42,581 bases of DNA from Trichomonas gallinae (GCA_008369845.1 MRSU01003724.1:1-42581); one strand, 5' to 3'. Positions 2,049 to 36,975 are shown, numbered from the stretch's first letter. Notes: generated by a model from the letters alone, not told the origin. Numbers and translations are program-made.

Positions 2049-2501
2049 TAAAAAGTTTACATGATGATCCACCCATTCAATTTTTTTGGAAAACCTTTTT
2101 ACTCTAGATGAAGAATTGTATGTAATGACTGCAAAATTTTATTTGTGAAGTTTACAACCTTATTCAGATTTTTGAATCTTCTTTCAGTCAATAGACAGCG
2201 TTTTGGCTTATTTATCTGCTTTTGTCTCGGATTTAGCAGATTTTCAAGTCATTTCTCTGATATAGTGTTGATTAATCAATTTCGATTTCGATTGTGTTCT
2301 AATTTTATCTTTAAATAGCTAAAATGCTTGTTTTGTATTGAAATATTCATTCGAAATGTGGACAAAATAGAATGATAAATTTTCAATTATGAAATTAGTT
2401 GACGATTTGGCGTAAAAATAAAGCAGTCATTATATTTGTAAAAACAATGTTTATTTCTATAATTCCAACGTAGATTTTGTTGAGTCGGGTTTATTATTTG
2501 T

Positions 2502-2618
2502 TTAGAGACCCATATAGTCGAAAGTTTTGACGACGGTTGATAACACCGCTCCATTGTTCTCTAAGTACTCTATGATCTCCTTGTTGTTGGTCTGATTTGC
2601 AAAAGATAAAGGAGTTTC
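2502..2618 (-). CDS. Split ankyrin gene, coding segment 3 (terminal)
   Basis: Manual translation ETPLSFANQTNNKEIIEYLENNGAVLSTVVKTFDYMGL*, a clean terminal ankyrin repeat missed by the ORF track; stop lies in TAAA. Confidence 0.85.
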   Translation of the reverse strand, partial: ETPLSFANQTNNKEIIEYLENNGAVLSTVVKTFDYMGL

Positions 2619-2783
2619 AATATTATAATATGAATTTCATGAGTTGATTGATGAACGCCTTATTTTGGTGATGAACAGCATAATTGGAATGATGAATCCA
2701 ATAACTAAATTAAATGAATTATATTTGAATAAGATGAATTGCATATGATGAAAAATGAATATGATACTGATATAAAAATGGAC
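2619..2783 (-). repeat. Intervening array 2: eight ~21-nt RTYCAT units (putative micro-intron/micro-exon chain)
   Basis: Unit lengths 23,21,20,22,21,20,21,17 (sum 165), each starting GTCCAT, ATTCAT or GTTCAT on the coding strand; in-frame TGA at 2637-2639. Confidence 0.85.
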
Positions 2784-2873
2784 TAACTTGATATTGACAT
2801 CAGCTCCATTCTCAACAAAGAACTTTACAAGATTAAAATCCTGATTTTTGATTGCAATAGTCAATGGACAGTC
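2784..2873 (-). CDS. Split ankyrin gene, coding segment 2 (30 codons of one repeat)
   Basis: DCPLTIAIKNQDFNLVKFFVENGADVNIKL, 90 nt of intact ankyrin consensus. Confidence 0.85.
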
Positions 2874-3097
2874 ATTAAGAAAAAATGAACTTCAGTAAGG
2901 AAAAATGAACAAATTCATATAGAAAAAATGAATCGTATAACATATAAAAATGAATATGATTAAGAATTGTTGAATCTTATAAGCAAATGTATGAATATAT
3001 TGAAGATATAAGGAATTCTATAGGAAATATAATGAATATAAAGAGATGGATGATGAACTCCATAATTATGATAATGAATTGTATATTTCCATTGTAC
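2874..3097 (-). repeat. Intervening array 1: eleven ~21-nt RTTCA units (putative micro-intron/micro-exon chain)
   Basis: Unit lengths 18,21,21,21,20,21,20,22,23,20,17 (sum 224); first unit starts GTAC, the rest ATTC or GTTC; in-frame stop at 2960-2962. Confidence 0.85.
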
Positions 3098-3913
3098 ATT
3101 TTTCTCATTAATATCAAATCCGTTCTGAATGCAGAAACATGCAGCTTGGTAGTTGCAGTATTTCATGCAATTAGCAACCGAAATAATTTCCACATTGAAA
3201 TGCTCATGAAGCCAATCTGCTACGTCATTTCGATGACACTCAATGCATGTGTTATAGCAGTCACGGAATTTATAGCCTTGATGCTCCAGAATATGAATAA
3301 TTTCGAGATTTCCACCTTCGCATGCTGCCTGGCAAGTTTTTTCACCGATTTCGGCTTCAGATAGAACCAAAAACTTGAAAATGTCTATCGATGCATAGCG
3401 AGCAGCCACATCTATAAGCTTGTATCCATCATAGTCTTTATTGATGCTGAATGTTGGGTGTGTGTAAAATTTATCGAATTCATCTTTCATGTCCCAGCAA
3501 ACTGCGTGTAAAATGCTCTCCTCTGGGAATATAGAGATGCTCTGCTTCGCTGAAATAGAGGAGTACTTGGTCTCTATGATTCCACGCTCACTAAGTATAG
3601 AACCAATGAATGGGTTGAATTTGAAGAATTCTTTCCACTTCAACTCTGCGTAAAAATCTGCCAATTTTTCTCTGCTTTTCTCGCGTTTTGTAGAAACAAT
3701 GTTGATGGCATCGATAATGAATTGCTTTTGGACGAGTCCTGAACTTACTATCTCGTTGACTTTTTCAGCACATTTGATTATTTGATTCTGATTTTTTGGT
3801 AAATCCCAAATAATTTCAGATATTTCGTAGTAGGGGCGGAATATGTCGATAATATCTGCCTCCTGGATGTTTTCTACTATCAAATCGCTGGGCAAAGGCA
3901 ACTTTGTATCCAT
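3098..3913 (-). CDS. Split ankyrin gene, coding segment 1 (trichomonad DUF3447-like ankyrin protein)
   Basis: LIDVAARYASIDIFKFLV...ACEGGNLEIIHILE...CIECHRNDVADWL...CIQNGFDINEKN; the ORF-track tail after NEKN is just translation of array 1. Confidence 0.85.
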
Positions 3914-4910
3914 TTTATATATTTTATCACAATTTTTATCGTCCAGATTTTAATCATTTTGTGTCGACACATATAATATTTTGTGAGTATTGGATAAATC
4001 AACTTTTGGACAGAAATAGAATTAAATTTGCACTACTAAGACCATAAAATATTAATATTTCGTTATATTCATTTCAATTAGTGATTTTTAAATTTGGTCA
4101 TTGAAAAATGTTTTGATGTGACGGCTGTGGGCATAGTAGTATATTATAAATTAGTTAAAAAGGCTATTTTGTTATGTAATTTATCTTTAAAGTGATGCTT
4201 TTCTATATTTAAAATCAAAATTAAACTATTATAAAGTTTTTAAGAACTATGATATGCTAAAACATTTATAGATGTACATATATAGTCTATATATATAGTA
4301 CTATAAGTTGAACTCATTATCATTATTATATCAAATAATTTCATATTTTCATTTGAACTGTGCATCATGAAATATATATATTTTAGGTTAAATAATCTAT
4401 ATTTCTTTCCATTTGTTATTTACTTGATTATAATTTGGATAAAGTTAGGTAATTAGTATAATAAGGGCCCTCTGTCTTAGACACTGAAAATATATAGCGT
4501 TATTACAATTATTATTGAATGCTTACTGAATGGATATTAACTTTGCAAAATATATCATTTTAAAATAGAGTTTAAATGAAAATTATGAACAAATTATCAT
4601 TATCTAAGACGAAAAATAGCCATTGATAGTAATGAAACTGCTCAATTGAGAACGTAAATTTGATCGGAATTAAAACCGATAATGTAAGATTTTTGCTCTT
4701 CCCATTAGCTTAGTCTGGTCCAACAAACACATTTTGTGAGTTGAAATGACGACTAAAATCACGAAGCAATTTTTGTCATGAATAAAAAAAAGATTTTGCT
4801 CTCTTTTTCAGCGCCAGCACGTCCAGACGATGGAGAGCAGCGTATTTTATGCAGAATGTGAAGCAGGAGTTCAAAAATTTTTCGTTTCCGTCTCACTTCA
4901 CTTGATTGTC

Positions 4911-6056
4911 ATGTTTGATGCAAAAACGTTCGCGGAGAGACAGGGAAGACTCTTAGACCTCGTCCCGGAGAAGTATGCGACAATACTTGTGTACGGACGT
5001 GATATAATGAAGAGATTGCCGACAATTCCATATAAATTCCAACAAAATTCGGACTTATTGTACCTCACAGGCTATGACCGTCCAAGTGGAATCCTCGCAC
5101 TAGTCAAGAAAGGCGACAATTATGAATCTGTTCTATTTTTGCCAGAGAAAAATCGCGAATCTGAAAAGTGGGAAGGATTTAGGACTGATTTTGATGTTGC
5201 TAAGAAGCAGACAGGTGTAGATCGCGTCATTTCTATTGATAGTTTCCAATCATCTCTTAAATCTTTATTAACACAAACTTGCTACATCAGCTCCCAAGAC
5301 GGACACCATGTTACAGGACGCGAAAAGAGGATCAGGAAGTATATGGATGAGCTTCGTTCTGTAAAAGATGCAGCAGAAAAAGAATGCATGATGAAAGCAT
5401 GCGAAATTACACATAATGCCATCCTCAAAGCCATTCCAATGATCAAATCCGGCGTCAGAGAAGGTTTAATCGACAGTACAATTAGAAAAGAATGTATTAA
5501 AAACGGTGCAACTGGTTTTGCATTCGAGCCAATTACAGCAACAGGAAAGAATGGCCTTTTCCAGTACTACCCTGGAAAAGATGGAATTATTTCGAAAGGA
5601 GATTCTTTCTTAATCAATTTCGGAGCTGAATACAAGCATTACGCTGCCGATTTCGCTCGCACATATCATGCTGAAGAAGCTCCTCGCGAACATCTCGATC
5701 TTTTGATGATGATTAACGATATCAAGAATACAATGGTAGAATCAACTAAATCTGGCCAGTATATTAGCCTTGACCATATCCATAACGAGAATATGAAGAT
5801 GATCTCCAGAGTTTTGAGAAAATTCAAGATTGGAACCGGTTTGGCTCAAATGAGAGAATTATGCCCAGACCACTCATGCCATTGGATCGGATTGGATATC
5901 TTCGATACCCCGTCCATTTCAACTGAGACACATCTCAAATCTGGAAACGCTTTCACTATTTCTCAAGCGATTTACTTCGATCCAAGCAATAGCAACGTCC
6001 CTCCAGTGTTCAAGGGACTTAGCGTCAGATTTGAAAATACTATTGTATATGAATAA
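4911..6056 (+). CDS. Xaa-Pro aminopeptidase-like protein (M24B), degenerate active site
   Basis: PYKFQQNSDLLYLTG AMP_N motif; GAEYKHYAADFART, HWIGLD and RFEN motifs; tandem Inr TCACT at 4893-4902 favours ATG 4911 over 4830. Confidence 0.88.
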   Translation: MFDAKTFAERQGRLLDLVPEKYATILVYGRDIMKRLPTIPYKFQQNSDLLYLTGYDRPSGILALVKKGDNYESVLFLPEKNRESEKWEGFRTDFDVAKKQTGVDRVISIDSFQSSLKSLLTQTCYISSQDGHHVTGREKRIRKYMDELRSVKDAAEKECMMKACEITHNAILKAIPMIKSGVREGLIDSTIRKECIKNGATGFAFEPITATGKNGLFQYYPGKDGIISKGDSFLINFGAEYKHYAADFARTYHAEEAPREHLDLLMMINDIKNTMVESTKSGQYISLDHIHNENMKMISRVLRKFKIGTGLAQMRELCPDHSCHWIGLDIFDTPSISTETHLKSGNAFTISQAIYFDPSNSNVPPVFKGLSVRFENTIVYE

Positions 6057-15154: not shown

Positions 15155-16932
15155 CTATGATGGGATTTTGTTCAAATTTACCCGAGCCTCCTTTAGAAGA
15201 CTGACTAGGAAGCTTTTTTGTGTGCCTGTCAACCTCTCTATTTTGCTGTATTTTTCTTGAAATTCGCCAAATTCGTCAGATATTTCCTTCTTGGCAGTTT
15301 TATCACACCATCTGCTGAGTTTCTCGTTTATCTCGTCGATAACGGAGTCAATTTCACCAATTATGTCGTTATTTTCCGCCATTTGTTCGATTTTTTGCTT
15401 GTATTGCTCTATCTCTTCTTGAGAGTAGTTCAGTTTGAACTCAATATTACTGATAGTATTAGTTTCCTCTTGCACAATTGAAACATACAAAATTGTATCT
15501 GAATCAACTTTGAGCGTGATTCTTAGCTTTTTGACTCCCTTAGGAATATTAGGGATGCTTATTGAATGAAGGAGTATGTTGTTTGAGCAGATGTTATCTT
15601 CACCTTGATAAATTTCCAATTTTAATTCCGATTTGCCTCCAATTATATTAAATTTGAATGTGTTTTCTTGAGGAATTGGGAATCCACTAAGGATGAATGG
15701 CTGAAATACATCATTATCCGTTTTGATTCCGATGCTTATCGGCTGAGTGTCGATGAAAACAGGCACATTTTCAACCGGCATAGCTTGGCGCATTTTGTGG
15801 ATGAGGCACATTCTTATAGCACCCTCTGCGACGACAGTGAATAAATCTCTAGCTTCATAAATTATTTTGTCTGATTCAAAAAATTCGATGAGCTTGACCC
15901 GAACTGCCTCTAGATTAGAGGATCCACCAACTGGAATAACTACATTTAGATCTTCTTTCTTTAAATGAGCCATTTCCAATGCTTTCTCAATTGGATCAAT
16001 GATATCCTCAATAATACTTTCGAATTTCCTTTTTGTAAGTTTAACCTCTAAATTCTCGCCTTGCCAAAACGCTGAAATGGTAATTGTTTCGTTTTTCACA
16101 AATTTAAAGTTTTCTTTGACTCTTCGGCATTCCAACCTTAACTTGCACATATTCATGCGATGATATATTTCATTCTCATTGTATTCATAATTAGAATGCT
16201 TTTGTTTGAAATCATTGATTGCATATTCCATTATTTTAACATCTATGTCAGCTCCTCCAAGCTGTGAATTTCCATATGTAGAAAGAACCTTATAAATGTT
16301 TTCTTTCACATTAATAATTGTTACATCTAAAGTTCCAGCGCCAAAATCGAAAATCATGATGTTTGCTTCATTCATATGACCAGTGTCTTTGAGGAGATCA
16401 TAACATTCAATTGATACTGCTGTGGATTCATTATAAAGCTGAATTAAATCAAGTCCTGCAATTGCTGCAGCCCTTTTGGTAGCTTCACGTTGTATATTGT
16501 TAAAATATGATGGAACTGTTATGATACACTTTGGATTTTTGATTTTTGTCATTTTGTAAAATGCATCTTTGATATGCATAAGTATCATAGCTGAAATTTC
16601 TTCTGGTCTGTATTGTTTATCATCAACACTGATCATTGCATATCCATCTTCGTCTTCAACAAGTTTATATTCACAATTCTTAAATAATCTCTGTACTTTT
16701 GGATCTTTTAGTTTTTCCCGATCAAACGCTTCGTGCTATATATGAATCTGGCTGGATATCGATATTGTTGCGTTAAGAATGCTTCGCCAATAACAATTTC
16801 TTTATTTTCTGTAATAACAACAACTGAAGGAAGTCCAGGGTAGTTATTTGAAAGTGCCATTTTATCACACCTGCCACTTTCTAGGGCAAAATATGCAACT
16901 GTTGATGAAGTTCCAAGATCAATCCCCAACAT
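15155..16932 (-). pseudogene. Divergent Hsp70/DnaK-like gene with one frameshift (pseudogene or sequencing error)
   Basis: MLGIDLGTSST...KRLIGK joins (K)LKDPKVQ...ITVPSYFN...IFDFGAGTLDV...VGGSSNL if one A is added to the A5 run at 16712-16716. Confidence 0.85.
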
Positions 16933-17115
16933 TTTTGCCAACGAATTTAATTATAAGAGATGATGCGTCAAATGGTTTATTTACATGTCAATAGCATCAA
17001 AGAGTCGTATTAACATATTGCCAAATATGACTGAAAGTCTTGCCAATGATATTGTATTATAAGCACATATTTATGGTAATGTATATAAAGAAAATTAAAT
17101 TTTTATTTTTTAAGA

Positions 17116-17307
17116 CTAACTGATTCGACAGTCACTATTGCTGCTGCTGCTGTAGCCAGAGTTGTTGTTATATCTATCTCTTTCTCTCTCTCTTTCCCTC
17201 TCCCTCTCCCTTTCTCTCTGCTCATTTTCTTCGATCTTTCTCTTCTCCGCTTCATACTTGTCCCACTGCTGGGTGCTGTAGTAATAGTTAAGGTCTGATT
17301 GACTCAT
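17116..17307 (-). CDS. Small 63-aa protein with ER dipeptide run and C-terminal CaaX-like CRIS
   Basis: Tandem Inr TCACTTCATT about 10-20 nt upstream of the ATG, T-rich 3' flank, charged helix. Confidence 0.65.
   Translation of the reverse strand: MSQSDLNYYYSTQQWDKYEAEKRKIEENEQRERERERERERERDRYNNNSGYSSSSNSDCRIS
17178..17219. repeat. Imperfect (CT)n/(CTCCCT)n microsatellite encoding (ER)n
   Basis: ctctttctctctctctttccctctccctctccctttctctct. Confidence 0.8.
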
Positions 17308-18062
17308 AGCTTGAAAAATGAAGTGAATATATTCTTGTGAAACAATTCAATGCAGATTTCGGTTAAATAGTCGTATAATTTTTATCGAAACAAAATATAA
17401 TGATGAGCAAACGAATCTAAGAATATGAAAAATTTTTGTCACAATCTTGTTTTGAAACAAATACATTTATCTACTCATGTATGCTTTGCTGAAAAAAAAA
17501 AGCAACATTAAGGCGATTGATTGTTAAATTTACGTTGAAAATGTCAAAAGTACAAAAAGTCGTATAAAATGAATTCCATTCGGTTGCTACATCAGGTATG
17601 CCAGCTATTATATTGTTCATTTATCCGAGAGGAAACTTTAAAACATCATATATGAGATTTTGCAAAATGATGCATTGGAAAAAGTGACGATTTGAATGCA
17701 ATAGAGCTAAGCACAACTTCTGCGTATTAGACATTATTCAATATACCATTTAAATCTTCTTATTTGGATAAATATCAAAGAAAATAGATTAAAATTTGTT
17801 TTAATTATGAGCAATAAGCAACCCTATGGCAGAAAAATATCTATCCCTTTTATAATGTTTTTGATATATGACTATTATAATTATCTAAAATTTTTCTCAA
17901 AAAAGTCAAATTACATTTACATTCATATTTCTATTTTACATGTCAAAAACAACAAAAAAAGTCGTAACAAAATAAAGCGGAGACCATTTTTGGAAGGATA
18001 TATAAAAATTATTAACTTTTAATTTTTTTTTTAAAAAAGTCGTAACAACTATCATTCTCCCT

Positions 18063-30345: not shown

Positions 30346-33300
30346 ATGGCGGAAAGTTCGGAGCCGAACTTATTCCAGCAGTTATTAGCAAAGATAGATG
30401 CTGTGATTCAGGAGCATCCTGTTACCGCCTACGAAGTTATTGAATCTAAAGTTTACGCACCACAACGCTTTCTTGAGAAATTCGCAAAGAAAAATATGAT
30501 TTTGATGCATAGATTCAGCGCAAACAGAATCACTGGCGCCTTAAAGCTTATATTTAACGCTACAGATGCAATTCTCAAAAAGAAAACGAGTGGATTGCCT
30601 TTCGCAACAGTGAATAAATTATGTATCTATTTTACACTCGGAGCTTCTTGCATTAATAGTCGTCCTATAGTTCCAGGCGAAGAAGTTGCTGACGAAGTGC
30701 TCGGCCGTCAAATTATTGCGCAGTCGAGTATCATTTTCGGAAATGATTTTGATAACTACACGTCTTTTGTCCAGAAATCTTTCAAAAACTTTTTATCCGC
30801 GATTGGTTCCCATAGCTCAAATATATATACGTATTTCTTAAATGCATATCAATCTGATATCGTCGCTGGAGCATCGATAAAGACCATCCAAATCAGCCTC
30901 AAGCCTTGGAAATACATGCCAGCCTCCATTGACCACGTCGTTAACTTCTTAAAGCCAATTGCATCAAATGTTAACCTTATAACGGATAAATATAGAGAGC
31001 CTTTCTGCCAGATGATGACAGCGACCCTGCTATCTGCTTTCCAACGCGATCCCGTCGCATTGTCTGATTTCCTGACCAAAAGAAGTGATATTATGTTAGC
31101 AGCTTCAATTCAGGATCAGATCATGTCATGGAACACGTCCAGTAGCCCGTTCGCGTGGCCAACAATGGCAGCTCTTTCGGTATTACTTCCAAACACTCAG
31201 CTGTCAACAAGCGAAGAAATTCCAAAATTACCTTTCATCAACAAATTCAAAGACATCGCGAATCCTAACAACTCCAATATCAAATTACCGCTCTTTGTCG
31301 CTCAGTCCATTCTCGTCTACTACCACGCTTTCGCCGTTTCTTCAGCACATAAGCTTCTTTTAAGATTCATTCAGCTACAGTTCCCGAATTTTATGAAGAT
31401 CTATTTCAACAACATGACAGAAATGTCAGGCGATTTCGTTAAAGTCCAAAAAGTTTATTATCCCATTGCAATTTTATATAATGCAACAACTTTCTTCACG
31501 AAGGAGGCTCTTCCTCACATCCTACAGCACGACTCATCACCGCAATTTACGATGGCTTCCATAATCAAGCGCTTCTGCAAAATTGCGAGCCCGTTCCCAG
31601 ATTTCTCAAAGAATTTCATTATGTACCTGATTCCTTCTACGCTTGATATCATAAGAAAGCCAATCCCAGACCCAAAGCATCCTTCTCTCCTTCCTCATAT
31701 CATTTCGGGATTCCAGTCCTACCCGCTCTTCATGAGAATGACTATTTTCTCCGACCCAGATGTTTGCAAAGTTCTTTTCAACTACGTCGCTAAGTATCCA
31801 GAAGTCAACCAACAGTTTTCGTACGTCTCATTCTTCAGCACAGAGCTGACAAGCGAAAGTATCCTCGATGAAGTCACCATCCTGATCTACAAGCAGTTCA
31901 TTTCGTTCTTGCTTGAGCGTTACACAACTTTGGGAATGTATAAGCCGGTATATTTTGACTTGCACATTCCTGAGATCATCCATGCGATCTCTGAGTCACT
32001 TCTACAGATCTTCCAGCAGGAGACTGACATCACAGATCATTTGGCAGCGCTTTTAGTTCCACTTTTGTCTGAGCTCGAAACATTTTCGCTGATGTTCTTC
32101 GCTTCTTCGAAGAAGAATTTCATCTCTATCGGCACAAACATCATGTACACACTTGTCGAAATCGTTCACGTGGCCCCAGAGCGTCTTTCCTCGAAGATGC
32201 CTGTCGATGACTACCAGCGCCTTGTCTCAGATGCCCGCGACAAGAAGGACTTCAAGAAGATCCCACCCAGCATCTCCAACATCCTCAAGACGCTGCCAAT
32301 GCCGACACCTGGCATCGACAGGGCGTATAACGCTCTTTTCGACTACTTCATGGCCCTGTGCAAGAAGTTCGACTCTTCTGTCTCGCTCGTCATGCCGACA
32401 GATCACGACATCGACACAAGCGGCATTGACATCAACGCTGAGTTCATTTCAGTCATCTCCATGCTGTTTTCGATTGTTTTCGACCAGACAATTCATCTGT
32501 ACAACCAGATGAAGTTCTTCCTTCAGAACGAGAAGGACATCGGCCAACTCGCTGCCACAGCGATTCCAGTTTGCCTCGCTCCACGCCACTACAACCCTCT
32601 GATGACCATCATCCTCGGCTACTTCAGGCAGTTCGACAACAGAGACGGCACGTTCAACATCTCGCCGAAGAACATCATCTTCCTCAACAACATTCTCAAC
32701 TTGCTGAGAGGTGTCTGCTCACAGGTCATCTACTGGACGCCTGAAATGATCAACCAGTCTATCTTCGGCCAACTCGGCAAAAAGATCGTCTCATTGTGCG
32801 ATGTAACGAATGGTGACTCGTCGAAGCTGATGTGCCTTAAGACACTCATCGCGATGATCAAGCTCGCCAACGAGCGAGGAAAGCCATTCGAGCCAAAGAT
32901 GAGGCACGCTATGTCGAAGACGATTCTCACATGGCTACCGCAGTCGGGTGATGCATCAAAGGACTTCGTCAACATGATCCACGAGGCACTCGCTCTTATT
33001 TTGGATGAACTTTCCCTCATCGAATGCGTCGATATTGAGGATCCGAAAGGCGCTGTCGAGGAGGCAGAGAAGCAATTCATGTTCTACTTCGCCAGTATTA
33101 AGAACAGACTCGAGAAGGAGCCAAATTCTGCGAAGCAGATTATTCCAGTCCTTGCCGCTCTTCTCAAGCAGAACCTTTCCATTGCCATCGGCCACTGTCT
33201 TTCAATGGGCTTCGATAGCAAGGACTCAGTCAGAACTGCTTTCATTGCTTCAGTCGCTGCCGTTTTCAAAGTCCCAGAAATCAGAGTCGTTGGCACTGCA

Positions 33301-36300
33301 GAAGCTGTCACAGAAGAAGTCACACTCATCGACATCCTTTTCTCTGGCAACTTAAAGCTCATCGAAATGATCGGCAACAACATAGAGTACAGCCGTGCAG
33401 AACACTTCGCGAAGGCTTCTCTCGAGGCCGCCGTCATTGCAGGAAGGACATATGAATACTTTGCTAGGATGGTTGAAGTCGAGTTGAAACCTATTGACGA
33501 CAGCAACAAGAACACAATCTTCAGAGGCAACGCCGTGCCAGCTCGTGCTGTCGGCCACTGGCCAAGGTTCGTCGCCATGGACTGGCTCAAGGCTACCCTA
33601 AGACCAATTTTCGATGAAGTTATCTCCAACTGCCAGAATAAAGTCGGATATATCATCAACCCGGCGAAGATTCCAGCCGACCAAAACATCGAAGTCAACA
33701 ACGATAACTTCCGCCAGATTTTAAAGAAGACAGTCCAGGCAATTTTAGATGGACAGTCTTCGATGCCAGACTCTTTGATCTTCGCTGCACAAATCATATT
33801 CGAGAAAGTTTTCGAGAAGGTCGGAGAGTTCGCTTACTCCATCCTTTCATCTTTCCTCTTCTTGAGATTTATTATTCCAGCTTTCTCCGCCACGCAGATG
33901 GTTGGACTTCCACCGCTCCTCCCGGACGCTCCACGCGAAGCTTTATTGCAGATTTCGACAGTTATCATGTCCTCTATTCTCAAGGGCAGGCTTGATGACA
34001 AGGCTGCATATTTGGCCCCATACAACGATATCGCAAAGTGGACTCAGGATTCTGTCAACTCAATGTTCCGCGGCTTAGTCCTCAAGCAAGTTTCTCATGA
34101 ACCTCCGAAGCTCGACATCGATGAGGCGCAGACTATTGCTAACATACACGCCGAAGTATGGCCTGTCTTGAAGAACCTCACACCACAGATTGAAGGCCTC
34201 GAAGCAGGCTCTGAAGAGCAGATCAACGCAAAGAGGTTTATCACTAAAGTCAGAGCAATGGGCCAGCCATCCAATCTCTCGAAGAAGAAGATTACATCGG
34301 AGCAAAGTGTCGCAGGCTACGACGAGCTCATGAACATGACATTCCCACCAGATCAAGAGCAGCAGCTCCAAGAAGCAATTTACAGAGATGAAAAGCAGTC
34401 GCCAGATGGCTGCGGAATTATTTACATTCACTTCTCAAAGCTTTCTTGCGTCAGAGACCCAAGAATCGTGGCTCGGCTTCTTTTCAAGGCTCTTAGACCA
34501 GACGACACGCAGCAGGCATACGTCTGTCTCATTCTCCCAGGCTTCGACCCAAGCAGGATCCCAAACACGACGATGATCCAGACATACATGACTATGCCTC
34601 CAGCGAAGCTGATCAAGCAGTACCTCATCTTAGAAGCTCCAAACGAGTTCGCTGTGTTTGTTAAAGAGAACCCAAACATCTTCAACAAGCCGCAACGCTT
34701 TGAAGTCATCGATTCCCTTTCAAAGCTCACAAGAATTCTCGGCCCAGTCCCGGCATCAATCCCAGCGACAACAATCGAGTCATTCACAGAGCCGCAGGCT
34801 ATCTACTCAGTGACTCTCAACGGCGACTCCACAAAGATCAGACTTCACGAGCACTCATTACAATTGATCGGCGACGTCGTCGACATCTGCGGTCAGTCAT
34901 TTACACCCCTCAGAGTCATCATGGCTGACCAGATCAAGGACTTCGAGCGCTCTTATATCACAAGGACGCCTGGCGATGAATTCAACCTGACGATCACGAT
35001 GAAGAGTGGCATCGTTTACTCAATGCGTGTCCCAGTCAACTCTCCGATGTATGACGCTGCTTATCAGTTAACGCTTAGAAGCCGTACGATCATGAATGCA
35101 ATCCAGTCTGTCGATGTCAACACGTCTACACTCCACTGGATGATGCTCAACCTCGCTTTTATCAACATCATCGCCCCAGAATCTTCTATTTCGCTGAAGA
35201 AAGCTGCAATCGATTTGATCTATGCCGTATTCGTGTCTTTCACCTTCAATCATCAGTTCAAGGTTGAGAAAATCCAGTCCGAACTTCTCCCATACAACCT
35301 CAGTGGCTACGTGCACGACCTTTCAACAGACCTTGCGAACTCGAACAAGGAGAATGTCAACGACTTCATGAATGAATTCTTCAACGCAGCGAAGTATGTC
35401 AAAGGTAAATCTCTCCCAACGATTTTCTTCTTCTTAGTCCCATGGATTGAGATTTTCGCCAGACAGCCCAGCATCCCGAAGGAGATCGTCGAGAAATTCA
35501 TCGACATGGTCCTCGCATCCAAGAGCTCAGACTCGGTCTGCTTCCCTGAGTACGTCTGGCCAGCTTTAGTCCAGAACGAGAAGATTGTCGAAATGATCAT
35601 CAACATCATCTTCGAGCGCAACGACTCACAGTTAATCGAGATAGCTGCTCAGCTCGCTGTTCTTAAGCCAACTCTTACGTCCAGCCTTATGGCCGATAAA
35701 TTTGCTGCTGTCATCAATGGAAAGGACGATTCTCACATCGAGTTTATTAGCGGCGTCATGACAACGATGATTTCACTCCACGTCTTTGACTTCGATAATG
35801 TCGGCGCACAGCTCCTTTATAACTGTCTCCAAGCGAGAATCGCATTCCCGAACAAGACAGTTGTTAGACTGCCACCAATCCTGATGAACGCCCTGCACGA
35901 ACTGTTCAGACGCTCAGGCAGCGGAATTGAGTTTGACCACACATTCATCGTCTCATCCTTCTGCACATATGATGGAGCCAATGAGTACATTGACGGAACC
36001 GGTGGTTACAGGTGGTGTGCAGCAGCCAGAGCAGTAGGCGAAGTCATCGCACGCGCAGTCAACAACTTCCCATCCAAGAAGTTGAAGGAGAGCTTGTTTA
36101 ACATCTTCGAGAAAGACTCGCTCGATCCAAGCAACCCTCTCCTTTGCGCCCAGGGCATAATCTACTCTGCGCCATTTGCTTCAGATCCTGCTGCTTATGC
36201 AAACAACCTTGTCCAGAAGTTGCGCGAATGCGATCCAATCCACGTCACTCCTCTAATTTTAGCTCTTTCATTAATAGAAATGACTCCGGAGCTTGCTGGT

Positions 36301-36975
36301 AAGCTATACTTCATCGGTGTCGCGCTCGGTGCACGCTACAACTCCCCAGCATGCGGCGATCTTGTTATTTCCGCCCTTAAGCAGTATTCTGATCTAACCG
36401 GATCCACGAGCGGCATTACAAGATACATGCACAGCACATTAGTAGAGTACCTCGAAACATGCACTGCCCTTCCTCTGCAGAAACAGCCTGCTTTCTCCGC
36501 GATCGCAATGGCCGCTTGCTACTCTAAAGGCGGCCTCGCACAGATTTTGGAGAAGCTCTCGAAGCTGAAGACAGATGAGCCAGTCGCTACAGCTTTCAGT
36601 GTCCTGAGGGATGAGTCACTCTCGAATGAGCTCGCCAAGGCTGACTATGGTGAAAACTTGGCAAACTTATCTGCCATCTTAATGATCATGCTTAGAACAC
36701 GAGTTCCAACTACACTCATCGAATTCACGATCAACCTCTTCACGGAACAACCCAACGGTCTCGGTGCCTTCGATGCGATTGGCACAAAGTTTGGCAGACA
36801 GATCTTCGAGGTCGTCAACGACGCTAGATTCACTGGCCTCCTTCTCAGGAATGCCAGAGTCAAGAATGAGGACTACAAACTTACTTCAATATTATATCCG
36901 ATCTTCATAGATATGCCAATGGTCACAATATCGAAGGAGCAGTCCGATCACCTCGTATATAACGTATTCACATAA
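30346..36975 (+). CDS. Large neurofibromin-like RasGAP
   Basis: TIFRGN arginine finger, SFLFLRFIIPAF RasGAP signature, flanking helical-repeat regions; 2209 aa with no interruption. Confidence 0.9.
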   Translation: MAESSEPNLFQQLLAKIDAVIQEHPVTAYEVIESKVYAPQRFLEKFAKKNMILMHRFSANRITGALKLIFNATDAILKKKTSGLPFATVNKLCIYFTLGASCINSRPIVPGEEVADEVLGRQIIAQSSIIFGNDFDNYTSFVQKSFKNFLSAIGSHSSNIYTYFLNAYQSDIVAGASIKTIQISLKPWKYMPASIDHVVNFLKPIASNVNLITDKYREPFCQMMTATLLSAFQRDPVALSDFLTKRSDIMLAASIQDQIMSWNTSSSPFAWPTMAALSVLLPNTQLSTSEEIPKLPFINKFKDIANPNNSNIKLPLFVAQSILVYYHAFAVSSAHKLLLRFIQLQFPNFMKIYFNNMTEMSGDFVKVQKVYYPIAILYNATTFFTKEALPHILQHDSSPQFTMASIIKRFCKIASPFPDFSKNFIMYLIPSTLDIIRKPIPDPKHPSLLPHIISGFQSYPLFMRMTIFSDPDVCKVLFNYVAKYPEVNQQFSYVSFFSTELTSESILDEVTILIYKQFISFLLERYTTLGMYKPVYFDLHIPEIIHAISESLLQIFQQETDITDHLAALLVPLLSELETFSLMFFASSKKNFISIGTNIMYTLVEIVHVAPERLSSKMPVDDYQRLVSDARDKKDFKKIPPSISNILKTLPMPTPGIDRAYNALFDYFMALCKKFDSSVSLVMPTDHDIDTSGIDINAEFISVISMLFSIVFDQTIHLYNQMKFFLQNEKDIGQLAATAIPVCLAPRHYNPLMTIILGYFRQFDNRDGTFNISPKNIIFLNNILNLLRGVCSQVIYWTPEMINQSIFGQLGKKIVSLCDVTNGDSSKLMCLKTLIAMIKLANERGKPFEPKMRHAMSKTILTWLPQSGDASKDFVNMIHEALALILDELSLIECVDIEDPKGAVEEAEKQFMFYFASIKNRLEKEPNSAKQIIPVLAALLKQNLSIAIGHCLSMGFDSKDSVRTAFIASVAAVFKVPEIRVVGTAEAVTEEVTLIDILFSGNLKLIEMIGNNIEYSRAEHFAKASLEAAVIAGRTYEYFARMVEVELKPIDDSNKNTIFRGNAVPARAVGHWPRFVAMDWLKATLRPIFDEVISNCQNKVGYIINPAKIPADQNIEVNNDNFRQILKKTVQAILDGQSSMPDSLIFAAQIIFEKVFEKVGEFAYSILSSFLFLRFIIPAFSATQMVGLPPLLPDAPREALLQISTVIMSSILKGRLDDKAAYLAPYNDIAKWTQDSVNSMFRGLVLKQVSHEPPKLDIDEAQTIANIHAEVWPVLKNLTPQIEGLEAGSEEQINAKRFITKVRAMGQPSNLSKKKITSEQSVAGYDELMNMTFPPDQEQQLQEAIYRDEKQSPDGCGIIYIHFSKLSCVRDPRIVARLLFKALRPDDTQQAYVCLILPGFDPSRIPNTTMIQTYMTMPPAKLIKQYLILEAPNEFAVFVKENPNIFNKPQRFEVIDSLSKLTRILGPVPASIPATTIESFTEPQAIYSVTLNGDSTKIRLHEHSLQLIGDVVDICGQSFTPLRVIMADQIKDFERSYITRTPGDEFNLTITMKSGIVYSMRVPVNSPMYDAAYQLTLRSRTIMNAIQSVDVNTSTLHWMMLNLAFINIIAPESSISLKKAAIDLIYAVFVSFTFNHQFKVEKIQSELLPYNLSGYVHDLSTDLANSNKENVNDFMNEFFNAAKYVKGKSLPTIFFFLVPWIEIFARQPSIPKEIVEKFIDMVLASKSSDSVCFPEYVWPALVQNEKIVEMIINIIFERNDSQLIEIAAQLAVLKPTLTSSLMADKFAAVINGKDDSHIEFISGVMTTMISLHVFDFDNVGAQLLYNCLQARIAFPNKTVVRLPPILMNALHELFRRSGSGIEFDHTFIVSSFCTYDGANEYIDGTGGYRWCAAARAVGEVIARAVNNFPSKKLKESLFNIFEKDSLDPSNPLLCAQGIIYSAPFASDPAAYANNLVQKLRECDPIHVTPLILALSLIEMTPELAGKLYFIGVALGARYNSPACGDLVISALKQYSDLTGSTSGITRYMHSTLVEYLETCTALPLQKQPAFSAIAMAACYSKGGLAQILEKLSKLKTDEPVATAFSVLRDESLSNELAKADYGENLANLSAILMIMLRTRVPTTLIEFTINLFTEQPNGLGAFDAIGTKFGRQIFEVVNDARFTGLLLRNARVKNEDYKLTSILYPIFIDMPMVTISKEQSDHLVYNVFT

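What the first reader, a model, noticed from the sequence alone, without database searches (positions are those of the whole stretch)
2874..3097. Array 1: eleven ~21-nt units, the first ten ending in a variable triplet (single-codon micro-exon candidates)
Coding strand parses as GTACAATGGAAATAT-ACA / ATTCATTATCATAATTAT-GGA / GTTCATCATCCATCTCTT-TAT / ATTCATTATATTTCCTAT-AGA / ATTCCTTATATCTTCAA-TAT / ATTCATACATTTGCTTAT-AAG / ATTCAACAATTCTTAAT-CAT / ATTCATTTTTATATGTTAT-ACG / ATTCATTTTTTCTATATGAA-TTT / GTTCATTTTTCCTTACT-GAA / GTTCATTTTTTCTTAAT-exon. The ends and period are conserved while the middles differ, unlike a slippage minisatellite. The triplets read T,G,Y,R,Y,K,H,T,F,E, with no stop and one Gly as the ankyrin consensus needs. 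Exact boundaries are my parse.
Basis: partly seen in the sequence, partly recalled or inferred. Interest (0 to 1): 0.88.

Follow-up and report, generated by a model that had tools for sequence, protein, structure and literature searches.

The report
Repeat-built spacers split an ankyrin gene
Two runs of roughly ten 21-letter units, each opening with the same six letters, cut a trichomonad-type ankyrin gene into three pieces that selection still keeps intact, so the runs are probably unusual introns without the normal splice signals; the idea that they hide one-codon exons remains untested.

Summary
The array is real and not chance. On the minus strand, 3079-2874 holds ten units of 20-23 nt that open with RTTCAT and end in TAT plus 3 variable bases. 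A second array of eight units lies at 2783-2619. No other such chain occurs in the window, and none of 300 shuffles gave one longer than 3.

The arrays split a DUF3447/ankyrin gene of a parabasalid-like eukaryote into three coding pieces. A roughly 95%-identical relative in a public metagenome keeps both arrays without indels. In it, 27 of 33 listed exon differences are synonymous, including 4 of 4 in the two small downstream exons. Only 4 of 16 array differences are, and one creates a stop. So the arrays are non-coding spacers inside a gene under selection. Most likely they are introns (inferred; no RNA data).

They lack GT-AG ends and the trichomonad branch/3' motif. Relatives, including Trichomonas vaginalis proteins, break off at the same loop position.

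No extra glycine is needed, and the absence of stops among the triplets is not significant. The triplets are exon-like in composition and change little, so one-codon exons are unlikely but not excluded.

The parts
3080..3913 (-). Exon 1 of the DUF3447/ankyrin gene.
   Evidence: Pfam gives DUF3447 4.9e-11 plus Ank_3 and Ank_4. Against the X1 relative, 23 of 29 listed differences are synonymous. VQWKYT matches IEYKFT in P0001 and IEWKYT in P0004.
2874..3079 (-). Array 1: ten units of 20-23 nt (the last is 17 nt up to the exon). Heads lie at 3079, 3058, 3037, 3016, 2996, 2975, 2955, 2933, 2910 and 2890. Non-coding; G is 6% of the sense strand.
   Evidence: Of the 6 listed differences falling where the exon-1 frame is still open, 1 is synonymous. 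X1 contigs show no gaps.
2784..2873 (-). Exon 2: one ankyrin repeat of 30 codons, from DCPL to NIKL. It may extend to 2766.
   Evidence: Ank_3 scores 23.1 bits (cut-off 22.3) and Ank 21.7 bits (cut-off 21.1). It is 53% identical to the stretch that directly follows the junction in the uninterrupted relative P0009 (E = 7e-11). Both listed differences are synonymous.
2619..2783 (-). Array 2: eight units with heads at 2783 (GTCCAT), 2760, 2739, 2719, 2697, 2676, 2656 and 2635. It is in frame with exons 2 and 3 but holds a TGA at 2639-2637.
   Evidence: Read in the exon frame, 3 of 10 listed differences are synonymous and one makes a new stop in the relative. There are no gaps in the 338-nt X1 contig.
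2502..2618 (-). Exon 3: the last, weak ankyrin repeat and C-terminus (38 codons), with stop TAA at 2504-2502 read as TAAA.
   Evidence: Open frame. Ank scores only 13.3 bits, E = 0.11. Both listed differences are synonymous. TAAA at the stop matches the trichomonad poly(A) signal (PMC13548475 passages).

Best explanation
The two arrays of about 21-nt, RTTCAT-headed units are non-coding spacers that split one selected DUF3447/ankyrin gene of a trichomonad-type eukaryote at the same loop position of two successive ankyrin repeats. They are most likely introns of an unusual, tandem-unit build that would be removed from the transcript, probably as whole arrays.

Shown:
- The periodic build.
- The coding pieces on either side.
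- Purifying selection on all three coding pieces, and none on the arrays read as codons.
- A break at the same position in many family members.

Inferred:
- Removal at the RNA level.
- The head hexamer acts as the left splice signal. It fits the GTWYWD head of the 23-28-nt 'type B' introns of Trichomonas when R is G.
- The array arose by repeated tandem duplication of a tiny intron-like module together with 3 neighbouring bases.

The right-hand signal and the machinery are unknown, because the ends are A/G-T...A-T and not GT...AG.
For: 1. Periodic, non-random build: see the observation check.

2. One gene. Exon 1 carries DUF3447 and Ank. Exon 2 passes the curated Ank_3 and Ank cut-offs. In relative P0009 the counterpart of exon 2 follows the counterpart of exon 1 without interruption.

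3. Selection, measured against the roughly 95% relative in run X1.
   - Exon 1: 23 of 29 listed differences are synonymous.
   - Exons 2 and 3: 4 of 4 are synonymous, where 0.20 of random changes would be (P about 0.002-0.008).
   - Arrays read in the upstream frame: 4 of 16 are synonymous, and one is a nonsense change.

4. Inside the arrays the heads plus triplets changed less than the middles: 4 of 144 positions against 16 of 161 (Fisher P = 0.018). There were no indels.

5. The sense strand of the arrays holds 0 TAAA, the trichomonad poly(A) signal. Shuffles expect 4.4 (P = 0.005), and the flanking spacers hold 4-7 per 345 nt (PMC13548475 passages).

6. The position is conserved.
   - P0001 (48% identical) and P0004 (61% identical; its cluster holds T. 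vaginalis TVAG_272630) run on for 6 conserved residues after the loop. They then pass through I-P or I-H-Y into a short T-rich tail and a stop.
   - Of 113 family representatives aligned through this junction, 32 end within 37 residues of it.
   - T. vaginalis TVAG_004680 (P0022) reads through a 61-residue T-rich stretch into a further ankyrin repeat.

7. GTTCAT fits the published type B head GTWYWD (PMC6260720 and PMC12316389 passages).
Against: - There is no RNA evidence. No listed run on record as RNA holds the gene, and the one probable transcript set (X2) covers only the two neighbouring genes.
- The array ends are not GT...AG. The boundary unit of array 1 starts with A here and in both orthologues (I = ATH).
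- The trichomonad branch/3' motifs (RCTAACACAYAG, TCTAACH1-2AACAG) occur nowhere in the window.
- No significant RNA fold brings the ends together (z = -0.84 and +0.63).
- G and A at the unit's first base interchange between strains, which is odd for working GT donors.
- The selection test rests on only 4 differences in exons 2 and 3. Differences within 30 nt of contig ends were not listed (4 in one X1 contig, 6 in another).
- Some short family proteins may be cut by contig ends rather than by stops.
- Protein tails of other members show no clear 21-nt period, so the iteration of the head may be particular to this gene.
Confidence: 0.55

Rival explanations
1. One reading: every unit is a working 17-20-nt mini-intron followed by a one-codon exon. 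All or some of the triplets would end up in the mRNA and lengthen the ankyrin hairpin loop.
For: - The junction at the true right end of each array (..AAT|GAC..ATT|GAA) has the same form as the internal ..TAT|NNN junctions.
- The triplets are exon-like in composition, while the rest of the unit has almost no G.
- The triplets changed at 1 of 54 positions, against 16 of 161 in the middles (P = 0.078), and that one change would be silent (GGC to GGT).
- Loop length at this place varies from 3 to 14 residues in uninterrupted relatives, so extra residues would be tolerated.
- A 3-nt exon exists in bee elavl2 (PMC8553928 passages).
Against:
- None of the mini-introns would end in AG, and 12 of 18 start with A.
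- They carry no branch motif.
- At 17-20 nt they are shorter than the shortest trichomonad introns reported (23 nt; PMC12316389 abstract).
- The absence of stops is not significant.
- The first base swaps A/G between strains.
Confidence: 0.08
2. The protein really ends at the first stop inside array 1 (TAA at 2962-2960). The arrays would be 3'-untranslated or spacer DNA, and exons 2 and 3 would be relics of a longer ancestor.
For: - 32 of 113 family representatives end within 37 residues of this junction, among them annotated T. vaginalis proteins.
- No canonical splice signals are present.
- T-rich read-through gives hydrophobic tails that could be tolerated.
Against: - Exons 2 and 3 are intact. 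Exon 2 passes the curated Ank cut-offs, and all 4 listed differences are silent.
- The break is shared by proteins only 48-61% identical, so relics that old should have decayed.
- The tails are not conserved in length (4-37 residues) or in sequence.
- The arrays avoid TAAA, whereas the stop after exon 3 reads TAAA.
Confidence: 0.15
3. An ordinary slippage minisatellite that landed in a decaying ankyrin pseudogene.
For: It is AT-rich and tandem. Trichomonad genomes are repeat-rich with many dead paralogues (PMC12316389 abstract). An HSP70-like gene in the same window is frame-shifted.
Against: - Units share only their ends (middle identity 0.33-0.39).
- There is no length difference between strains that differ at 4-8% of positions.
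- Two arrays sit at equivalent repeat positions.
- Strong purifying selection acts on the flanking coding pieces.
Confidence: 0.07
4. The repeated head is a binding site, on DNA or RNA, spaced two helical turns apart. It could be an array of initiator-like TCAYW elements or of YCAY-type RNA sites, and it would regulate the gene whether or not the array is spliced out.
For: - The head holds TCAT, followed by T, A or C. Real genes of the window have TCAY about 12-14 nt before their ATG.
- The 20-21-nt period is supported by autocorrelation peaks at 20/21 and 41/42.
- The heads are conserved relative to the middles.
Against: - The initiator and YCAY readings are recalled, not tested.
- YCAY enrichment is almost wholly the head itself.
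- This reading does not explain how exons 2 and 3 come to be translated.
- It does not exclude the intron reading.
Confidence: 0.08
5. The arrays are translated through recoding (stop read-through or frameshifting).
For: Array 2 is in frame with exons 2 and 3 and holds a single TGA. A preprint reports stop read-through in Trichomonas (search listing only).
Against: - Array 1 changes frame and has stops in every frame.
- The relative carries an extra stop in array 2, and 7 of 10 changes there are replacements or nonsense.
Confidence: 0.02

Closest known systems
Type B short spliceosomal introns of Trichomonas vaginalis and T. stableri (23-28 nt; GTWYWD...TCTAACH1-2AACAG)
   Same: Same group of organisms by gene content. 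The unit length (20-23 nt) is near that of a type B intron. GTTCAT fits GTWYWD, and T-rich bases follow the head (PMC6260720 and PMC12316389 passages).
   Different: - Here the head is A-initial in 12 of 18 units, including the boundary unit.
- There is no TCTAAC branch motif and no AG end.
- The units are iterated 8-10 times to give 165-206 nt.
- Published trichomonad genes have one, rarely two, introns.
U12-type (AT-AC) introns of the minor spliceosome (recalled knowledge)
   Same: Either A or G is accepted at the first base. The 3'-terminal bases are loosely defined. The last two units of array 1 hold TCCTTAC and TTCTTAAT, which resemble the U12 branch box TCCTTAAC.
   Different: The head is not RTATCCTT. 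The branch-like words occur in 2-3 of 18 units only. No minor-spliceosome RNA is known to me in parabasalids, and none was found in the window (42 kb only).
Recursive splicing at ratchet points in Drosophila (PMC8605326, abstract in the search listing)
   Same: An acceptor-like and a donor-like element lie side by side, repeated inside one intron. That would allow stepwise removal.
   Different: Ratchet points are canonical AG|GT sites kilobases apart in very long introns. Here the junctions are non-canonical and about 21 nt apart.
3-nt microexon of honeybee elavl2 (PMC8553928 passages)
   Same: A single codon serves as an exon in a loop or linker region of a protein.
   Different: It is one microexon flanked by AG/GT and long introns in an animal. 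It is not a tandem series with 17-20-nt spacers.
Intronic minisatellites (VNTRs)
   Same: A tandem array of short units inside a gene.
   Different: VNTR units are alike along their whole length and vary in copy number. Here only the ends are kept, and the length is stable between strains.

Membership tests
Trichomonad type B spliceosomal intron | GT at the 5' end within GTWYWD | tested here: not met
   6 of 18 units read GT (GTTCAT or GTCCAT). 12 read AT, including the first unit of array 1. The orthologues P0001 and P0004 have Ile (ATH) there.
Trichomonad type B spliceosomal intron | Branch/3' motif TCTAACH1-2AACAG ending in AG | tested here: not met
   A regex scan of both strands of the window gave no match to the type A or type B 3' motifs. 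CTAAC...AG occurs only at 6 unrelated places.
Trichomonad type B spliceosomal intron | Length 23-28 nt, single | tested here: not met
   Units are 17-23 nt. The arrays are 206 and 165 nt.
Trichomonad type B spliceosomal intron | Exon-exon junction seen in RNA | not testable with these tools
   No listed RNA run holds the gene. X2 contigs cover only 1266-2044 and 4894-6028.
U12-type intron | 5' box RTATCCTT and branch box TCCTTAAC near the 3' end | tested here: not met
   The head is RTTCAT in 15 of 18 units. Branch-like words occur only in the units at 2975, 2910 and 2890. The U12 consensus itself is recalled.
Slippage minisatellite | Units alike along their whole length | tested here: not met
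   The middles of the units are 0.33-0.39 identical. Tandem Repeats Finder reports only 2.9-3.1 copies of fragments.
Slippage minisatellite | Copy number varies between strains | tested here: not met
   There are 0 gaps in the 8 listed X1 contig pieces over 2441-3140, apart from one 1-nt insertion at 2500, outside the arrays. Only one other strain set was available.
Ankyrin-repeat / DUF3447 protein family | Pfam DUF3447 and Ank models above curated cut-offs | tested here: met
   - Exon 1: DUF3447 42.9 bits (cut-off 26.9) and Ank_3 23.8 bits.
- Exon 2: Ank_3 23.1 bits (cut-off 22.3) and Ank 21.7 bits (cut-off 21.1).
- Exon 3: Ank 13.3 bits only, below the cut-off.
Micro-exon | Flanked by working acceptor and donor sites and present in mRNA | tested here: inconclusive
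   The flanks are ..TAT| and |RTTCAT, not AG| and |GT. Presence in mRNA could not be tested. There is a weak conservation hint: 1 of 54 positions against 16 of 161, P = 0.078.

The most novel reading that the evidence does not exclude
Each unit is a working mini-intron of 17-20 nt with A/G-T...A-T ends, followed by a one-codon exon. Tandem duplication of 'intron plus codon' has given trichomonads a way to write tips of variable length and sequence onto ankyrin hairpin loops, by choosing which units to splice. The same non-GT-AG splicing would operate, unrecognised, in dozens of DUF3447/ankyrin genes of Trichomonas vaginalis, whose intron catalogues were filtered for canonical motifs.
Probability: 0.07. 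Interest if true: 0.95.

Novelty: new variant of a known kind. Interest (0 to 1): 0.62.

Why it matters
Trichomonads are textbook intron-poor eukaryotes. About 60-80 introns are catalogued per genome, all GT-AG with long fixed motifs, and the catalogues were built by discarding junctions without those motifs (PMC12316389, PMC13548475).

If these spacers are removed from mRNA, there is a hidden class of introns with other end signals and a modular, repeat-built body. It would sit at one fixed place of a large ankyrin family that includes T. vaginalis genes now annotated as short 'hypothetical proteins'.

That would change gene models for this family. It would bear on how tiny introns multiply (duplication of an intron plus a codon). 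It would also raise the question of which machinery recognises A/G-T...A-T ends in an organism thought to have only a reduced major spliceosome.

If they are not removed, the finding shrinks to an odd conserved spacer behind a truncated gene.

Tried and rejected
- **Whole genome:** none is held for this window.
- **RNA evidence:** no RNA holder is listed. X5 and X6 (RNA, same study as X1) laid nothing. X2 (guessed RNA) covers only the neighbouring genes.
- **Relatives' DNA:** The search for related loci with the exon-1 alignment A1 found no relative in metagenome contigs, viral contigs or genome contigs.
- **Pattern scans for four RTTCAT heads:**
  - The metagenome scan stopped at 1 of 64 parts with 119 loci. 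The viral scan stopped at 23 of 64 parts with 120 loci.
  - Every array I inspected was an ordinary satellite, an ATTC microsatellite or a coding heptad repeat. The lowest middle identity among the viral loci was 0.42, and none of the loci I printed showed a neighbouring ankyrin gene.
  - Nothing like the window's arrays turned up, but most of the metagenome collection was not scanned.
- **Protein searches:**
  - The exon 2 + array 2 frame found no candidate.
  - The k-mer search with exon 1 found one near-length relative and two longer ones.
- **'Removal of 224 and 165 nt keeps the frame':** I dropped this as evidence, because the boundaries were chosen at codon edges.
- **Stop depletion of the triplets:** not significant.
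- **RNA folds of both arrays:** not better than shuffles.
- **GT...AG pairs using the AATCAG inside exons 2 and 3:** rejected, because they would delete the first helix of each repeat, which is conserved in P0009.
- **21-nt period of head-compatible residues in the protein tails of other family members:** no enrichment (2 of 36 spacings at 19-23 nt, against 25 of 818 in protein bodies).
- **[IV]H dipeptide at the start of the tails:** My count by eye is 10 of 27 abrupt tails, without a control.
- **Earlier notes of this scan:** nothing relevant.
- **Papers:**
  - No paper found with Trichomonas, intron and ankyrin terms, with Tetratrichomonas or Histomonas genome terms, or with the TVAG gene numbers or DUF3447, describes such arrays.
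  - A word search of PMC13548475 for 'tandem', 'ankyrin' and 'non-canonical' also found no mention of them.
  - Supplements of the intron papers were not opened.

Full report
**What the window is.** The 42.6-kb window is dense with long open frames at about 30-48% G+C.
- Pfam finds a DUF3447 + ankyrin protein, a BspA-type leucine-rich-repeat protein (LRR_5, 2.2e-138), RabGAP-TBC, RasGAP, a kinase, an HSP70, a class-V aminotransferase, a histone, cofilin and a tetraspanin.
- The closest named relatives of the gene studied here are Trichomonas vaginalis G3 proteins.
- The best DNA holder is a bird metagenome, with a relative about 95% identical.
- I therefore treat the source as a trichomonad-type parabasalid. 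That is an inference from gene content, not a name.
- No whole genome is held, and Rfam finds nothing in the window.

**The observation.**
- A second array of the same kind lies at 2783-2619.
- Chains of RTTCA spaced 17-25 nt occur nowhere else in the window. In 300 block shuffles no chain was longer than 3, against 7, 6 and 3 observed.
- Across 18 units the head is R-T-T-C-A-T, kept at 17-18 of 18 for positions 2-6, with A 12 and G 6 at position 1. Near the unit end, A-T at positions -5/-4 is kept in 15 of 18, followed by three variable bases.
- The middles are no more alike than random AT-rich sequence (0.33-0.39). This is why Tandem Repeats Finder reports only fragments.
- The sense strand of the arrays has 6-7% G, against 18-20% in the flanking coding pieces (array 2 was measured on 2764-2626). 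That G sits almost only at the R position and in the three bases before it.
- Contigs of run X1 carry both arrays with substitutions only. The arrays are therefore real, and their odd unit lengths (20, 22, 23) are not homopolymer errors.

**What the arrays interrupt.** The minus strand encodes, from ATG 3913, a protein with a DUF3447/ankyrin C-terminal part ending ...GFDINEKN-VQWKYT.
- After array 1 comes a 30-codon frame, from DCPL to NIKL. It passes the curated cut-offs of Ank_3 and Ank, with its third residue on profile position 5.
- After array 2 comes a 38-codon frame with a weak ankyrin match and a stop read as TAAA.
- Both arrays therefore sit in the hairpin loop between two ankyrin repeats.
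- In the family member P0009 (30% identical over the whole N-terminal domain), the counterpart of exon 2 follows the counterpart of exon 1 directly. It is 53% identical to exon 2 (E = 7e-11). The pieces belong to one protein.

**Where the left edge is.**
- The only near-length relative found by word search, P0001 (48% identical), runs ...DINAKD-IEYKFT and then I-P and a T-rich tail to a stop.
- The best hit of the exhaustive search, P0004 (61% identical; its cluster holds T. vaginalis TVAG_272630), runs ...DINAKH-IEWKYT and then I-H-Y and a stop.
- All six residues change conservatively.
- In many other members the tail also opens with I-H or V-H, that is RTTCAT in phase 0. My eye count is 10 of 27 abrupt tails, with no control; see Tried and rejected.
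- For array 2 the left edge is either 2783 (GTCCAT, read V-H) or 2765. I could not decide between them.

**Is anything missing from the loop?** No.
- Uninterrupted relatives have 3 residues here (P0009), 7 (P0002), or 11-14 (P0016, P0022, P0030, P0006), several without glycine.
- Joining VQWKYT to DCPL gives a loop within that range.

**Selection.** Run X1 holds one or two strains about 4-8% different from the window. The tool lists only differences at least 31 nt from a contig end.
- In exon 1, 23 of 29 listed differences are silent (24 at third positions).
- In exon 2, 2 of 2 are silent, and in exon 3, 2 of 2.
- Only 0.20 of all possible single changes in exons 2 and 3 would be silent, so 4 of 4 has P about 0.002, or 0.008 if 0.3 is assumed.
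- Read in the frame of the exon upstream, the arrays show 4 silent changes of 16, and one change makes a stop in the relative.
- The three coding pieces are thus all under protein-level constraint and the arrays are not translated. This is the main reason to think that the arrays are taken out of the message.
- Caveat: 4 differences in one contig and 6 in another lie too close to contig ends to be listed. Some of them may fall in exons 2 and 3.

**Constraint inside the arrays.**

| Part of the unit | Differences observed | Expected |
|---|---|---|
| Middles | 16 | 11.1 |
| TTCAT | 3 | 6.2 |
| Position 1 (R), all A/G swaps | 3 | 1.2 |
| Positions -6 to -4 | 3 | 3.7 |
| Last three bases (triplet) | 1 | 3.7 |

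These are the 26 listed array differences.
- Heads plus triplets against middles give Fisher P = 0.018. Triplets alone give 0.078.
- No indel separates the strains in 371 nt of array.
- The arrays hold no TAAA on the sense strand, against 4.4 expected (P = 0.005). The neighbouring spacers hold 4-7 per 345 nt.
- UAAA is the validated poly(A) signal of T. vaginalis (PMC13548475 passages). Its absence fits a stretch that must be transcribed through.

**How it most likely works.** The arrays behave like introns in four ways.
- They are non-coding and G-poor.
- They are free of poly(A) signals.
- They lie between selected exons.
- They sit at a position shared across a family.

They do not look like known trichomonad introns.
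- Published consensus motifs are GYAYGY...RCTAACACAYAG for type A. For type B (23-28 nt) they are GTWYWD, seven bases, then TCTAACH1-2AACAG. All reported introns are GT-AG (PMC6260720 and PMC12316389 passages).
- GTTCAT fits GTWYWD, and a unit is about as long as a type B intron.
- But 12 of 18 heads start with A, no unit or array ends in AG, and neither 3' motif occurs in the window.
- No fold brings the ends together.

My reading has two inferred parts.
- A tiny intron-like module was duplicated in tandem together with three neighbouring bases. This explains why every unit repeats both junction forms.
- The array is now removed as a block, from the first head to the last ..AAT/..ATT junction, by machinery that tolerates A or G at the first base.

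The free A/G exchange and the loose 3' end recall U12-type introns, but the U12 boxes are not met. That comparison rests on recalled consensus sequences.

**The micro-exon idea.** It fails on its details: unit 1 is coding, glycine is not needed, and the stop-free statistic is not significant. Its mini-introns would also be shorter and less canonical than any described. It is not excluded, though.
- The triplets are compositionally exon-like.
- They differ between units yet barely changed between strains.
- The true right-hand junctions have the internal form.
- Only cDNA can settle it.

**Family context.** The exhaustive search gave 1342 proteins at E up to 0.001, and the best 150 were listed.
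- Of the 153 proteins stored by then, 113 aligned through the junction in a local BLASTP. Of these, 32 end within 37 residues after it, mostly in T-rich read-through tails of 4-37 residues with no conservation. The others go on with ordinary ankyrin repeats.
- Members include T. vaginalis TVAG_272630, TVAG_162640 and TVAG_004680. The last reads through 61 T-rich-coded residues straight into another ankyrin repeat and then into a second tail.
- The interruption of the loop is therefore widespread and old.
- Whether the other spacers are RTTCAT arrays is unknown. Their protein tails show no clear 21-nt period, and their DNA could not be fetched.
- Some short proteins may simply be cut by contig ends.

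**Literature.** Searches for Trichomonas introns with ankyrin, for parabasalid non-canonical introns, for Tetratrichomonas and Histomonas genomes, and for the TVAG numbers or DUF3447 found no description of such arrays.
- I read passages, not whole texts, of PMC12316389, PMC6260720, PMC13548475 and PMC8553928.
- Both recent T. vaginalis intron catalogues discard junctions without the canonical motifs, so spacers like these would have been filtered out.
- Their supplements were not opened.

**Verdict.** The arrays are non-coding spacers inside a selected three-exon ankyrin gene, most likely non-canonical, repeat-built introns (confidence 0.55). One-codon exons are unlikely (0.08) but remain the most exciting reading left open.

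Noticed in passing
window 15155-16950, minus strand (break near 16712-16735): An HSP70-like gene is split into two frames at a run of A. The N-terminal 80 codons end ...KRLIGKN*, and the rest continues in another frame. This is either a homopolymer error of the assembly or a pseudogene.
   Followed up: partly
window 2619-2783, minus strand: Array 2 lies in the same frame as exons 2 and 3, with a single TGA at 2639-2637. The X1 relative has a further stop, through the change at 2707, so the open frame looks accidental.
   Followed up: yes
window 3087-3093 and 2863-2869: A 7-base stretch in the last codons of exon 1 is complementary to one in the first codons of exon 2. The minimum-energy fold pairs them across array 1. 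The fold as a whole is not better than shuffles (z = -0.84), and array 2 has no counterpart.
   Followed up: partly
window 2687, 2793 and 2828 (run X1): Three X1 contigs leave the window's sequence inside array 2 or exon 2 and continue with unrelated letters. These may be structural variants or paralogous copies in the metagenome.
   Followed up: no
window, gene ends listed: 7 of 18 listed stops read TAAA, including the stop after exon 3. This fits the UAAA poly(A) signal described for T. vaginalis. Several genes have TCAY about 12-14 nt before the ATG, like the trichomonad initiator (the initiator motif is recalled).
   Followed up: partly
window 30346-36975, plus strand: A 2209-codon frame with a RasGAP domain has 0.43-0.50 G+C and negative GC skew, against 0.29-0.40 G+C in most of the window.
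   Followed up: no
window 17116-17346, minus strand (repeat at 17173-17219): A (TC)n-type repeat lies inside a small open frame and encodes a run of alternating Glu and Arg.
   Followed up: no
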